A stretch of DNA of 64,000 nt from Hydrolagus affinis. Its lineage: Eukaryota. The stretch lies in NCBI GenBank assembly GCA_012026655.1, contig JAAILG010000168.1:1-64000 (forward strand), read 5' to 3'. The notes under the pieces are model-generated. The model was not told the origin of the DNA. It made no database searches and saw only the letters and a program-made list of their open reading frames with translations. This document shows, in pieces, positions 24,613 through 57,049 of the stretch. The position numbers were made by a program, and so were the translations under genes. Position 1 is the first letter of the stretch. The number at the start of each line of letters is the position of its first letter.

Positions 24613-24776
24613 CCGGCTCCATTCAAATAATCTGTACTGCGATTGCCACTTGGCCTGGCTCTCTGATTGGCTGCGGCAGCGTCCGCGGGTTGGGCTGTAC
24701 ACACAGTGCATCGGACCGGGACACCTGAGAGGTCATAACGTTGCCGAGGTGCAAAAGAGGGAGTTCATTTGCTCTG
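24613..24776 (+). CDS. SLIT2: SLIT2 exon 8 (164 nt, D1 LRRCT): [54 protein letters not shown]
   Basis: cttcag|C CGG CTC CAT..TGC TCT G|gtaaga; ends in phase 1. Confidence 0.98.
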
Positions 24777-25681
24777 GTAAGAGTGAGAAAGAACTATGTT
24801 ACAACTAAGAGAAATCAGTTGCCTGAGGCACTCTTGTGCCATGCTAACCTGGTTCTCTTAGAAACTGTAAACAGCCAGTTTTATAATATTTTAATTTAAG
24901 TCTGTACGGGACAGGTATGAGGCAGAGGCACACAGCAGCGTTTATGGAAAGAATCACTGAGGATTGGGGTTTGTATTAACTGCACATCAGTGTTTAACCT
25001 GAGTTGAATTTTTCAGTGTAGATTTGAAATGTATAAATGTACAACACTTATTTAATATGATCTCTCTGTTCTACATGCCTTTATTAATTAATGCTTATTT
25101 TTGACTATGATGCTGTATGATATCCGTTTTCTTAGAACATTTCTAAACTAACATCTTGCGTGACTGTCTAAGCTCACTCCCTCTTATTTTGATCTCAATA
25201 AAACTGTAGGATGGATGCTTTAATAGTTGTTGTGGTTTGTTCACCATTACTTCTCTTGGTGATCCCAGAGATATTGAACCGAACATCACAGCGTTACCTC
25301 TGTAACTATAATTTTGTGTTGGTTCTAAGCTTGCTGTTTCTTTTGGTCTTCAAAGTGGACCCATACCGCTGATTCTATCACATCTCTGGAGAATAGAACC
25401 ACCTCCGTAAATTAAAATGTCTTGGTTTTTTATTTTAATCTTGCTAACAAATCAAAACATAACACTTTAGATTTGCAATTCCCCTCACAAGGTGGCCCTT
25501 CACGGCATGCATAGAATGTGATTTTGCTGAGATTGTGCCTCGATCTTGCCAAAGTGTATATTTATTCAGGCATCGGATAGTGAAAGGCTGCTCCATGACC
25601 TGCTTGTTGGTAGTCCCGGTGTGCTTGCTTTTCATTACTGCGGTTGACTAGCAAATTGCTCTTAGACGTCTTTCCCCTCAG

Positions 25682-25687
25682 GTTTTG
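25682..25687 (+). CDS. Candidate 6-nt SLIT2 microexon (adds Gly-Phe); unverified
   Basis: tctttcccctcag|GTTTTG|gtaagt: CAG acceptor, consensus donor, frame-preserving in a phase-1 intron. No transcript evidence. Confidence 0.45.
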
Positions 25688-25868
25688 GTAAGTATGAGGC
25701 GAGTCTTTGCGTTTATATTGCTTTACTTTTGTACTGCTTTTCTTACTGTCTAAGGAAACCCGTTTTCTTGCTTGGAATGTTAACTACACGCCTTTGCCTG
25801 CAGTCTGCGGAAGGTACTTGCATGGCACTAATCTCATTGTGTTTTCTTTTCTCTCTCCCGCTTTCCAG

Positions 25869-25880
25869 ATGAGGATGAAG
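25869..25880 (+). CDS. SLIT2: SLIT2 12-nt alternative microexon (DEDE) with GC donor
   Basis: Long pyrimidine tract, then ttccag|ATGAGGATGAAG|gcaagt. Branch-point-like CACTAAT at 25826-25832. Corresponds to the DEEE insert of mammalian SLIT2 isoforms. Confidence 0.88.
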
Positions 25881-53709: not shown

Positions 53710-54260
53710 GGAATTGACAGCATAGTTGGAAGGCCATTTAGCCCATTGTATCTGCACTGGCTCTTTCGAGAGCAATCCTTTCAATCCTATTTACCTACTA
53801 TTCCCCCATTCTCCTGCAGTTGACTCATTTTACTTATTTATCTAGTTCCCTTTTGAAAGCCAATATGGATTTTGCCTCATTCCCCGAACATGGCAGAGCA
53901 TTCCATATCCTAACTTCCCTATATGTGGAAGAAAAATTCTCCTAAACTCACCCATTTGTTTGTTTGCTAACTATCTCCCAGTGCCTTGGGATGTTATCCC
54001 GACATGAAAGGCATTATACAAATGTAATGTTGTTGTTAAATTGATGCCCGCTCGTCACTGACTCACTGCCCAGTGGTAATAATTTCTGACAATTAAATTC
54101 TATCAAAATTTTAATGACCTCTTATCAGATCACCTCTCAACCATCTTTGTTCCAACAGAAAAAGTCCCAGTTTCCCTAGTCTCTCCAGTATCATCTCCTC
54201 CGCACACACTCTAGTGCCTTCCTAAAGTTGGTTGAGAAATACTGCATACAATATTGTAAC
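53710..54260 (-). mobile_element. CR1-like LINE 3' region with a nested + strand L2 tail (about 53978-54037)
   Basis: GGAAGGCCATTTAGCCCAT..TTCCCTTTTGAAAG..GCATTCCATATCCTAAC..AAAAATTCTCCT is the reverse of a CR1 3' end. It is interrupted by GTGCCTTGGGA..TGAAAGGCATTATACAAATGTAAT(GTT)n. Confidence 0.65.
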
Positions 54261-56083
54261 TATGCTCATACTCACATTTTGTGGAGTTGAGGGAGTTTCT
54301 TGAAGACCCCAGTGGCCATTGGGCTTTAAAGGTGAGGACCAGGATCTACACCCCTATTTAGAACCTAAGATATTGTGAGACTCATTTTCTGGTGATTTTC
54401 AGAATCACTTCTGTTTCCTGAGGTGTGCTTTCTCATCCCTACTGCGATAGGATTTACCAGATGCGTTGTTATGCAAAGTAGAGGCACTGACCAGGGCTGG
54501 GAGTGTTCAGTCACTTTGAATTTCAGTAACTAATTCAAAAGTTGAACGGTGCCAAAAAGTTCCACCTTTAAAGAATTTATGAACATTGCGGGAGAGTGGG
54601 GTGGGAGGTGGGGTGGGGGAGGTTGGGGTGTATGAAAATGATCCATCTTCATATTTTTGGCAACAGTGTAGCTGTGCTGGTGAAGTGTAATTCTCTTACT
54701 GCTCTAGCTAATGAAGATTAGATTGTTCCCAGCAGACAATTTGATCTGAATAGACTAGCTAATCTTCATGTCCATTAATAAACGATGATGTGTGTTGTGT
54801 GAATATGAGTGGTGCATATCGCTAATATGCTTGCGTGCCGTTATGAATGCACAGTGAGCGTATTCTGACCTAACCCAGAGTGGAGCTACACAAGTAGTAA
54901 ATCCCCAAGTACAATCGAGATTGATTGCAGGAACTGTTTTGACTGTTTTTCAAGATTTAAGCCTTGGTTTCCCAGAGTATTTGACAAATATGTCAAGTGA
55001 ATGAAATATTTAACGTGTCCGACAGCAGGCTGTAGGCATTTTTTATAGCCAGAGGCAGTCCAAGTGAATACTGAAGTTCTTCTGATGTGCTTTGGTGCAA
55101 CATCCATGAAGTGGCCTCCCTTGTGTTTACCATCATTAGCTGTAGACACCCATGGTTCATATACAATGGAAGGATCTTGAAAGTGGTGCCACAGTCCAGT
55201 GCCTTTCAGGTTATAGATCAGGTAATAATTAGGGGTTTATTCCCAGATATCCCACACCAGCAGGGAGTGCTTGCCTGGCACTCTATAACGTGCTGCTGGG
55301 AGTTGTTAAGAAGTTTGCCTGACAGGTTCAGTGTATCTTCACAATCGTGCTGTACCCAAGTGGAGTCGGATCCAGGTTAGTGCAGCATTGCATTGTTTAA
55401 GTGCTTCCTAGTGAAGGTTACCTGAGCCAAGGATCTCTTCTATTTAGTCAAATTGACAACTAATGCCCTGCGAGAATCTTAACACAAATTTGGATTGGCT
55501 TCTTTGCTTTCCTGAATATAAATGCAATCGCTCTCTCTTTCTCTATCCCCCCCCTCTCTCTGTCACTTCTATACTTTACTTTTTTCAGGAATTCACCATT
55601 TTGGCTGTAAGTACAACTGAGATCTTTATTTCCCACCTCTGGCACCGATTTCTCTTTCCCTCCAGCTGTTTTCCCCCTATATGTTCTGAGCTTGATCCTT
55701 CACCCACCATTCCTCACCTCTTCCCTCCGCAGTTCTCAACAAATCATTCAAGCCTCAGTAACAGTGCCCCTAACCCACCCCAGTACCATTCACGTGACCT
55801 CTCCCTGTTTTGTTAGCAGTGATACTAAGCACCAAGCTGGGGGCACTTAGAAAGAAAGAACTGCTCTTTCATTTAGGCATGTTTACTGCTTGTGTGTAGG
55901 GTATATTCTCATTAGCTGGTACACTGTTCATTGTTACTGAGTCTGAAAGGCAATGTTTTGGCTGTGAATACCAGTGCTTTAGTACCCTTGACCCCTAATG
56001 CTACATCCTCTACCTTTTAAATGCTGTGCCTTCTTTCCTCTAATACTTCCCCTCACACTTTTACCTGGCCTAGCTGATGCGGT

Positions 56084-56193
56084 TCTGAGACTCAGCGGGA
56101 TTTTTCGTTGTGCTTGATCTAACCATGTGGTTGCAAGGTACGAATAAAACATGGTTCTGTCAAGCACCATGGAACGTCACGTAGCCTTCTACA
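56084..56193 (+). ncRNA. MIR218-1: miR-218-1 precursor; 5p mature TTGTGCTTGATCTAACCATGT at 56108-56128, 3p arm about 56150-56171
   Basis: Exact miR-218-5p sequence pairs with ACATGGTTCTGTCAAGCAC. Loop and 3' flank (CATGGAACGTCACGTAGC) resemble mir-218-1. Expected position in the SLIT2 intron upstream of exon 16. Confidence 0.97.
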
Positions 56194-56898
56194 GCAGGCT
56201 CTCATCTACAGCAAATTCAGTAGATATATTTAGAGCGAACCTGTCAAAGGCCACCACGACTTGGGATAGTAGTATTGCAGGTGGAAGATGTTAGAGCCAG
56301 GAACCTGTTTTATTGCATCTGTATTGAGGTCACAGCTGATTGAATTTCTCCAATAAAAAACAATGGATAAAAATGATAGATGAGGTATGGAGTGGAAAGA
56401 CAGGTGAGGAGGGTGAATGCAATGAGTTTACCAGATGCCTTGTTATAGAAAGGAGAGGCACTGACACAAGGCTGGAAGTGTTCAGTCGCTTTGAATTCCA
56501 GTCACTGATTCAAAAGAATGGCTCAGGTGGGAGCAGTAAATTGAATTAGATAAGGCTTAGTAACACATGATTGCACTGGTTACGGGAGAGTGGGAAGACT
56601 GCTAGCTTTGTAGTAGACAGTTGCATTGGAAGGTGTCTGCATTGAAAGGTCAGATTGTAAATGTTACCTCTTCTCTTCCGGACCCTGGCTTTACCTTTGT
56701 CAAAAAGTTCAAGATCTAGATGCTTAGGTCTTGAAGTTTTGCTATCTGTGTGGTTTTAATTAAAGTTATCCTGAAATTCTCCTGCCCTGACATTTTGTTT
56801 AATTCCCTTGTACATTTCCACTTCTCTTATGGTGTGAATATGTTTTTTCCAACGTGCTTACTAAATAATATCTGCATTCTGACTGGACTCATCTGCAG

Positions 56899-57049
56899 GC
56901 ACAGAGGATTACAGATCCAAGCTCAGTGGAGATTGCTTCATGGATCTTGCTTGCCCTGAGAAGTGTCGTTGTGAAGGAACCACCGTGGACTGCTCCAATC
57001 AAAGACTTACTAAATTCCCTGACCACATCCCTCAGTACACCGCTGAGCT
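56899..57049 (+). CDS. SLIT2: SLIT2 exon 16 (151 nt, D3 LRRNT): [50 protein letters not shown](L)
   Basis: ctgcag|GC ACA GAG GAT..GAG CT|gtaagt. Confidence 0.98.

What the first reader, a model, noticed from the sequence alone, without database searches (positions are those of the whole stretch)
24613..57049. Robo-binding domain D2 is bracketed by microexon cassettes on both sides
The two interdomain linkers flanking D2 are the only phase-1 junctions in the window, and each holds a known microexon plus a new candidate: 6 nt + 12 nt upstream, 24 nt + 18 nt downstream. RBFOX motifs lie upstream of the 12-nt exon (repressive position) and downstream of the 24-nt exon (enhancing position), which predicts opposite regulation by one factor. 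The downstream intron also hosts miR-218, a known Robo1 repressor. Hypothesis: a combinatorial linker code coupled to miRNA output.
Basis: inference. Interest (0 to 1): 0.7.

Follow-up and report, generated by a model that had tools for sequence, protein, structure and literature searches.

The report
Ancient optional mini-exons in Slit2 hinges
Three tiny optional exons sit in the hinges on either side of the receptor-binding part of the axon-guidance protein Slit2: two are already known from humans, and the third is shared from sharks to birds and adds a spare cysteine that likely changes how the hinge is locked, while a fourth proposed exon and a link to the neighbouring microRNA lack support.

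Summary
The window is SLIT2 exons 5-18 of a chimaera-like fish. Three of the four proposed microexons hold up. The 12-nt and 24-nt exons are the catalogued human events HsaEX0060157 and HsaEX0060159. The 18-nt candidate is real: 30 of 289 parsed Slit models (27 species, sharks to a bird; 0 of 19 mammalian models) carry it, and all end in an unpaired cysteine. Automated gene models already list it; I found no paper on it. The 6-nt candidate has no support: 0 of 281 models, splice signals matched by three antisense decoys, and an upstream AG 18 nt away. RBFOX activation of exon 15 is published for human cells, and two motifs lie downstream here. Repression of the 12-nt exon is untested, and SRRM4 raises both exons together. 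D2 is not special: all four LRR-domain junctions are phase 1, and a 33-nt cysteine exon lies at D4-EGF1. miR-218 occupies the same intron in SLIT3 with no strong microexon candidate and overlaps no splice site, so coupling is unsupported. The scan noted the same cysteine microexons earlier in another genome (e1-7812704).

The parts
24613..24776 (+). SLIT2 exon 8, C-terminal cap of LRR domain D1; ends in phase 1
   Evidence: spliced directly to exon 9 in 15 RNA reads
25682..25687 (+). 6-nt candidate microexon; unsupported, likely a chance splice-site pair
   Evidence: not seen
25819..25824 (+). RBFOX motif TGCATG, 9 nt before a branch-point match of the 12-nt exon (predicted repressive)
25869..25880 (+). 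12-nt cassette exon, four acidic residues in the D1-D2 linker, GC donor; orthologue of human HsaEX0060157 (inferred from length, position and the peptide in other vertebrates)
   Evidence: 37 of 281 models incl. lamprey, catshark, teleosts, frog, birds; human event
28806..28950 (+). exon 9: D1-D2 linker cysteine and N-cap of D2
38564..52563 (+). exons 10-14 (38564-38635, 40879-40950, 45212-45283, 50764-50907, 52400-52563): LRRs and C-cap of the Robo-binding domain D2
   Evidence: D2 crystal construct 2v9s/2v9t aligned
52891..52914 (+). 24-nt cassette exon 15 (AKEQYFIP); human HsaEX0060159, the Slit2-WT versus deltaE15 exon
   Evidence: 153 of 289 models
52976..53059 (+). two RBFOX motifs TGCATG at +62 and +140 after exon 15 (enhancing position)
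   Evidence: the human exon is RBFOX2-dependent
55589..55606 (+). 18-nt cassette exon (GIHHFGC as read in shark model P0018); its last base makes a cysteine codon with the first two bases of exon 16
55633..55793 (+). YCAY cluster, 9 in 200 nt after the 18-nt exon (possible NOVA enhancer)
   Evidence: highest of 27 exons scored; 3% of 200-nt windows reach 9
56098..56179 (+). pre-miR-218-1 hairpin
56899..57049 (+). exon 16: D2-D3 linker cysteine and N-cap of D3; starts in phase 1

Best explanation
This is SLIT2 with three conserved optional exons (12, 24 and 18 nt) in the linkers outside the Robo-binding domain D2, which likely tune hinge length, charge and cysteine pairing rather than the Robo contact surface. 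Shown: the exons, their phase and their conservation in gene models; the inserts fall outside the crystallised D2 unit; each LRR unit has 10 cysteines and the 18-nt exon makes the D3 unit 11. Known from human cells: exon 15 needs RBFOX2, and SRRM4 raises both the 12-nt and 24-nt exons. Inferred: the two TGCATG sites keep RBFOX control of exon 15 in this fish; the 18-nt exon is likely NOVA-enhanced; its cysteine, 12 residues before the native linker cysteine, would compete for that cysteine's partner or bond to another chain. The exons sit at phase-1 junctions because these are the domain boundaries, where an insertion would not break an LRR. Each exon most likely has its own regulation. The 6-nt site is probably chance, and miR-218 is probably an older passenger of the same intron.
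For: Gene structure and phases. The 18-nt peptide is in 30 of 289 parsed models from 27 species (sharks, rays, reedfish, teleosts, frogs, lizards, a snake, a jay); all 30 keep G-[IV]-H-[HR] and the final C, including the 21-nt form in cypriniform and characiform fish and herring; it occurs with and without exon 15. Cysteine counts 10/10/10 without and 10/11/10 with it. The D2 crystal construct aligns to residues 275-487 of P0128: it starts after the 12-nt site and matches only up to the start of the exon-15 peptide. PMC2693880 passages: D2 (271-479) alone binds Robo1 and collapses growth cones. RBFOX2 on exon 15; SRRM4 on both exons; YCAY cluster. SLIT3 paralogue has miR-218 in the same intron and no high-scoring microexon.
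Against: Support for the 18-nt exon is from automated gene models, not from a validated transcript that I read. No disulfide was mapped. The native pairing of the linker cysteine with a cysteine on the LRR back is recalled (Howitt 2004, not held) and backed only by even counts. The YCAY cluster is a 3% event found after looking. Motif conservation in other species' introns could not be checked.
Confidence: 0.7

Rival explanations
1. One reading: one factor (RBFOX) drives the 12-nt and 24-nt exons in opposite directions, as part of a four-exon code.
For: TGCATG lies 9 nt before the 12-nt exon's branch-point match and twice after exon 15. RBFOX2 activates human exon 15. Repression from upstream sites is established RBFOX behaviour (recalled).
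Against: There is a single upstream motif, with no knockdown data found for the 12-nt exon (searches; supplement look-ups). SRRM4 moves both exons up. Models with both exons are common (24 of 37 that carry the 12-nt exon), though gene models do not phase exons reliably. The 6-nt member is unsupported.
Confidence: 0.2
2. Microexon choice in the D2-D3 intron sets miR-218 output, for example because the 18-nt exon's donor shortens the hosting intron from about 4 kb to 1.3 kb and places a 5' splice site 492 nt before the hairpin.
For: Geometry. A splice-blocking oligo at zebrafish slit3 exon 9 raised mir-218a-1 (PMC12910030 abstract).
Against: The hairpin overlaps no splice site. In the same paper, a partly efficient block of slit3 exon 14, next to the host intron, left mir-218a-1 unchanged (section read). 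SLIT3 hosts miR-218 in the same intron with no strong microexon candidate. Human mir-218-1 has its own promoter in intron 4 and did not track SLIT2 in pancreatic lines (bioRxiv 2020.09.29.319202 abstract).
Confidence: 0.08
3. The 6-nt site is a real, rarely used neural microexon that gene-model pipelines miss because it is too short.
For: Canonical donor, frame kept, TGC at -25, TGCATG 132 nt downstream. Six-base exons are hard to align (general knowledge). The read test lacked power, since it also missed the known 12-nt exon.
Against: Scores matched by 3 antisense decoys in 67 kb; AG at -18 inside its pyrimidine tract; 0 of 281 models, although one guppy model does carry a different two-residue insert here (P0154).
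Confidence: 0.12
4. The 18-nt exon works as a metal- or pH-sensitive His-His-x-x-Cys patch, or as a plain spacer, and not as a disulfide switch.
For: His-His is kept in 29 of 30 models alongside the cysteine; the linker is low-confidence in the AlphaFold model, as expected of a flexible segment.
Against: No metal or binding test was run. A plain spacer would not explain an invariant cysteine that depends on one terminal base. Free thiols in secreted proteins usually end up bonded (general knowledge).
Confidence: 0.2

Closest known systems
Human SLIT2 exon 15 (24 nt, VastDB HsaEX0060159; Slit2-WT versus Slit2-deltaE15)
   Same: Same length and position, before the miR-218 intron; the peptide is identical to that in mammalian models; RBFOX motifs lie downstream, where RBFOX2 binds in human cells.
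   Different: Nothing notable; this extends the motif arrangement to a cartilaginous fish.
Human SLIT2 12-nt exon (VastDB HsaEX0060157)
   Same: 12 nt, D1-D2 linker; four mostly acidic residues in lamprey to bird models; SRRM4-responsive in human cells.
   Different: No TGC in the last 40 nt before the acceptor here; GC donor; the adjacent RBFOX motif is untested.
18/21-nt slit2 exon in RefSeq-type models (e.g. XP_051893388.1 Pristis, XP_038647427.1 Scyliorhinus, XP_021331538.1 Danio, XP_041444146.1 Xenopus)
   Same: Same exon; peptide identical in five shark and ray models.
   Different: Absent from the 7 Callorhinchus models seen and from 19 of 19 mammalian models seen; no paper found.
33-nt SLIT2 D4-EGF1 cassette and 27-nt EGF5 microexon (mouse 'exon 28b/31'; SRRM4, NOVA2, Elavl2 target)
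   Same: Short frame-keeping cassettes in the same gene; the 33-nt exon also adds one cysteine at a phase-1 domain junction.
   Different: Outside the window; the 27-nt exon is the studied neural one.
Alternative-splicing-regulated miRNAs that span exon-intron junctions (Melamed 2013; title seen in a reference list only)
   Same: A miRNA hairpin in an alternatively spliced region.
   Different: miR-218 is wholly intronic, 492 nt and 720 nt from the nearest splice sites.

Membership tests
SLIT2 orthologue | Four LRR domains then EGF repeats, closest to SLIT2, with miR-218 in the intron after exon 15 | tested here: met
   a second, more distant copy with miR-218 (SLIT3-like) is on C18014
Conserved vertebrate microexon (18-nt exon) | 3-27 nt, frame-keeping, canonical splice sites above background | tested here: met
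Conserved vertebrate microexon (18-nt exon) | Conserved across species and alternatively included | tested here: met
   30 of 289 parsed models, 27 species; forms with and without it in the same species, e.g. Pristis P0126 versus P0122. Gene models, not reads.
Conserved vertebrate microexon (18-nt exon) | Inclusion seen in RNA reads of this lineage | not tested
Conserved vertebrate microexon (6-nt candidate) | Splice signals above background | tested here: not met
   3 minus-strand decoys score as well; AG-free zone 18 nt
Conserved vertebrate microexon (6-nt candidate) | Present in transcripts or gene models | tested here: inconclusive
   0 of 281 models; none among 15 junction reads, which also lacked the 12-nt exon
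SRRM3/4-type neural microexon | UGC enhancer shortly before the acceptor (feature recalled) | tested here: not met
   no TGC in the last 40 nt for the 12-, 24- and 18-nt exons; one at -25 for the 6-nt site. The human 12- and 24-nt exons respond to SRRM4 all the same.
SRRM3/4-type neural microexon | Neuron-enriched inclusion | not testable with these tools
   tissue of the runs is not given
RBFOX-activated exon (24 nt) | UGCAUG in the downstream intron | tested here: met
   +62 and +140; human orthologue depends on RBFOX2
RBFOX-repressed exon (12 nt) | UGCAUG upstream near the branch point | tested here: met
   -50, 9 nt before CTAAT; a single site
RBFOX-repressed exon (12 nt) | Inclusion rises on RBFOX loss | not testable with these tools
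   no data found
Splice-site-overlapping miRNA | Hairpin spans an exon-intron junction | tested here: not met
   hairpin 56098-56179; nearest sites 55606 and 56899

The most novel reading that the evidence does not exclude
The 18-nt exon is a splicing-controlled disulfide switch, over 400 million years old and possibly lost in mammals. When included (perhaps under NOVA), its cysteine re-registers the bond that pins the D2-D3 linker, or cross-links Slit2 chains, possibly through the second optional cysteine of the 33-nt D4-EGF1 exon. That would change how the dimer presents its Robo-binding domain.
Probability: 0.22. Interest if true: 0.68.

Novelty: new member of a known kind. Interest (0 to 1): 0.36.

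Why it matters
Slit2 guides axons and blood vessels, and its exon-15 isoforms already differ in growth inhibition and vessel permeability. An unstudied, deeply conserved exon that puts a free cysteine in the same hinge offers a simple, testable way for splicing to change the shape or cross-linking of the ligand. The RBFOX motifs suggest that control of exon 15 predates the split of cartilaginous and bony fish. The value is limited: two exons and the RBFOX link are published, the third is in automated annotation, the scan noted it before, and the miRNA coupling is unsupported.

Tried and rejected
Run search: no RNA holder listed; this says nothing on expression. First lay (likeness 85, four runs) was swamped by a repeat at 26860-26927 and showed no RNA joints. 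Second lay showed only exon 8 to exon 9 joints (10+3+2 reads; 27-30% of each run read; one sample; joints need 3 reads from 2 starts), too thin to exclude rare exons. Related genomes for intron alignment are not held, so DNA conservation of the 6-nt site and of the motifs was not tested. Look-ups of earlier findings by place and sequence returned nothing. AlphaFold model of an 847-residue snake model with the insert: mean pLDDT 68, pTM 0.33, both linkers under 50; no coordinates were available, so no cysteine distances. Howitt 2004 and Morlot 2007 are not held. Co-occurrence of exons in gene models was not used as evidence of co-regulation, because such models are not phased. No complex prediction was run: the open question is a disulfide, which that score does not test. 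The splice-site matrix came from 22 exons of this gene, one with a mis-set donor end, and scanned GT donors only; one search added GC donors for the linker introns. A 9-nt frame at 53656-53664 scored well but holds an in-frame stop and has no other support. Supplement limits: files 13-19 of PMC7935315 were not searched, and tables of PMC12358039 were cut when stored; RBFOX data on the 12-nt exon, or a mammalian 18-nt event, could stand there or in papers outside the library.
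Full report
Identity. The window holds 13 constitutive exons (5-14, 16-18; numbers follow the human convention that the 24-nt exon is exon 15) of a SLIT gene on the + strand. Exon 14 is 100% identical to shark and Callorhinchus SLIT2 models, and the exon 9 linker peptide matches Callorhinchus, so this is SLIT2 of a chimaera-like fish. A more distant copy with a second miR-218 lies on G000:C18014 and is SLIT3-like. Exons 9-14 encode D2: the human D2 crystal construct (2v9s/2v9t) aligns to this part of a catshark model, starting after the 12-nt site and matching only up to the start of the exon-15 peptide. 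PMC2693880 (passages) states that D2 binds Robo1 Ig1 and that residues 271-479 alone collapse growth cones. The inserts therefore lie outside the Robo-binding unit.

Phases. Two of the 12 introns between constitutive exons in the window are phase 1, after exons 8 and 14. This is true but not special to D2. In the adjoining contig the D3-D4 and D4-EGF1 introns are phase 1 as well, and the latter holds a 33-nt cassette at C168:77208-77240 that appears in many models. D3-D4 shows no recurring insert in jawed vertebrates among 202 parsed models; two models carry a longer linker. Phase 1 marks the domain boundaries, and three of the four boundaries carry cassettes.

The known exons. The 12-nt exon (25869-25880, GC donor) matches a four-residue insert in 37 of 281 parsed models, from lamprey to birds. 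The 24-nt exon (52891-52914) is in 153 of 289 (the pattern missed a few variants), including lamprey and SLIT1 models. The 310 proteins came from two searches and two cluster listings; they include paralogues and many isoforms per species, so they are not independent, and 29 and 21 rows could not be parsed at the two linkers. Both exons are catalogued in humans as HsaEX0060157 (12 nt) and HsaEX0060159 (24 nt) (PMC7935315 supplement rows). Exon-15 isoforms differ in growth inhibition and vessel permeability (PMC6406468 and PMC7720527, passages).

The 18-nt exon is real. It is the best-scoring short exon frame on either strand over 67 kb (acceptor 12.8, donor 11.8; no antisense equal) and has a 116-nt AG-free zone. 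Its peptide is in 30 of 289 parsed models from 27 species: sawshark, sawfish, two catsharks, manta, reedfish, many teleosts, two frogs, two lizards, a rattlesnake and a jay. It occurs with and without exon 15. It is in 0 of 19 mammalian models (12 species) and is not among four mouse Slit2 cassettes of 37, 24, 33 and 27 nt (PMC12358039 supplement rows; that list also lacks the 12-nt exon). Loss in mammals is therefore possible but not shown. All 30 end in cysteine, which depends on the exon's last base, and 29 keep His-His. Units D2, D3 and D4 with their preceding linkers have 10 cysteines each; the insert makes D3 eleven, and the 33-nt exon adds one more at D4-EGF1. I took the lead on cysteines from the scan's note e1-7812704 and checked it here. 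I found no paper on this exon: searches for Slit2 with microexon, exon 15, RBFOX or NOVA2 (listings, with passages read in PMC4387716, PMC12358039, PMC4930328 and PMC12308364) concern exon 15 or the 27-nt EGF5 exon, and six peptide words gave 0 papers. The library lacks most subscription journals.

The 6-nt candidate is unsupported. Its scores (8.3, 9.1) are met by 3 sites on the antisense strand and by another 6-mer at 36493-36498 in a phase-2 intron; about 0.2 such sites are expected in a 4-kb intron. It has an AG at -18, a shorter AG-free zone than any of 22 constitutive acceptors. No model of 281 has its two residues. RNA reads of a close relative join exon 8 directly to exon 9 in 15 reads with no listed insert. 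That test also missed the 12-nt exon, so it has little power, and short exons are easily missed by annotation. I put the site at about 12%.

Regulation. Two TGCATG follow exon 15 at +62 and +140 (P about 0.001 at the gene's rate). One TGCATG lies 9 nt before the 12-nt exon's branch-point match, a repressive position by established RBFOX rules (recalled); I found no test of it. Against a simple see-saw, SRRM4 raises both human exons (46 to 97 and 62 to 94 PSI). Nine YCAY motifs follow the 18-nt exon within 200 nt, the most of 27 exons scored and reached by 3% of windows. NOVA binds YCAY and regulates another Slit2 exon (PMC4930328, passages), so NOVA enhancement is a reasonable but untested inference.

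miR-218. The hairpin is at 56098-56179, 492 nt after the 18-nt donor and 720 nt before exon 16. miR-218-1 in SLIT2 intron 15, miR-218-2 in SLIT3 intron 14, and repression of ROBO1/2 are known (PMC9326663, passages). Here SLIT3 carries miR-218 in the same intron with no exon-15 peptide and no short frame scoring above 13.5, against 17.9-24.6 for the SLIT2 linker exons, so the location does not need the microexons. A partly efficient block of the exon before the host intron in zebrafish slit3 did not change mir-218a-1, although a block at exon 9 raised it (PMC12910030, abstract and one section). Human mir-218-1 has a separate promoter (bioRxiv 2020.09.29.319202, abstract). Coupling is not excluded but has no positive evidence.

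Mechanism. Most likely the three cassettes are separately regulated and adjust the hinges that position D2 within the D4-linked dimer: four acidic residues before D2, and 8, 6 or 14 residues after it. The 18-nt exon adds a thiol 12 residues before the native linker cysteine. That cysteine is recalled to bond to the back of the next LRR domain (Howitt 2004, not held; even counts agree). The new thiol would compete for that bond or link to another chain. Shown: exons, conservation, cysteine parity, motif positions. Inferred: regulators in this fish and every protein-level effect.

Verdict. Partly confirmed. Two known exons, one real exon that is annotated but apparently unstudied and has an intriguing cysteine, one probable chance site, and an unsupported miRNA link. 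Novelty: new member of a known kind. Interest 0.36.

Noticed in passing
G000:C168:77208-77240 (L010): 33-nt cassette exon in the phase-1 D4-EGF1 intron that adds one cysteine; AG-free zone 117 nt; present in many vertebrate models and in the mouse cassette list at about 5% inclusion.
   Followed up: partly
window 53656-53664: 9-nt frame with good splice scores (10.0, 9.0) and a 63-nt AG-free zone between exon 15 and the 18-nt exon; it would add an in-frame stop. A possible poison microexon, more likely chance.
   Followed up: no
window 36493-36498: Another 6-nt AG...GT frame scoring like the proposed 6-nt exon, in a phase-2 intron; used as a measure of chance.
   Followed up: partly
window 25881-25882: The 12-nt exon uses a GC donor in an otherwise full consensus context.
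   Followed up: no
window 49618-49689 (- strand): tRNA-like match (Rfam 45.6 bits) with broken pairs, probably the head of a tRNA-derived SINE.
   Followed up: no
window 26860-26927: Very high-copy short repeat with thousands of partial reads and contigs laid on it; similar stretches recur in the introns.
   Followed up: no
P0154 (guppy model), D1-D2 linker: Two-residue acidic insert instead of four, suggesting a shorter form or an internal acceptor of the 12-nt exon in that species.
   Followed up: no
two models, D3-D4 linker: An 11-residue insert with a cysteine at the D3-D4 junction in 2 of 202 models (ids not printed); no such exon scored in this genome's D3-D4 intron.
   Followed up: no
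PMC12358039 supplement, mouse Slit2 24-nt exon: Inclusion 0.38 in glutamatergic versus 0.72 in GABAergic neurons.
   Followed up: no
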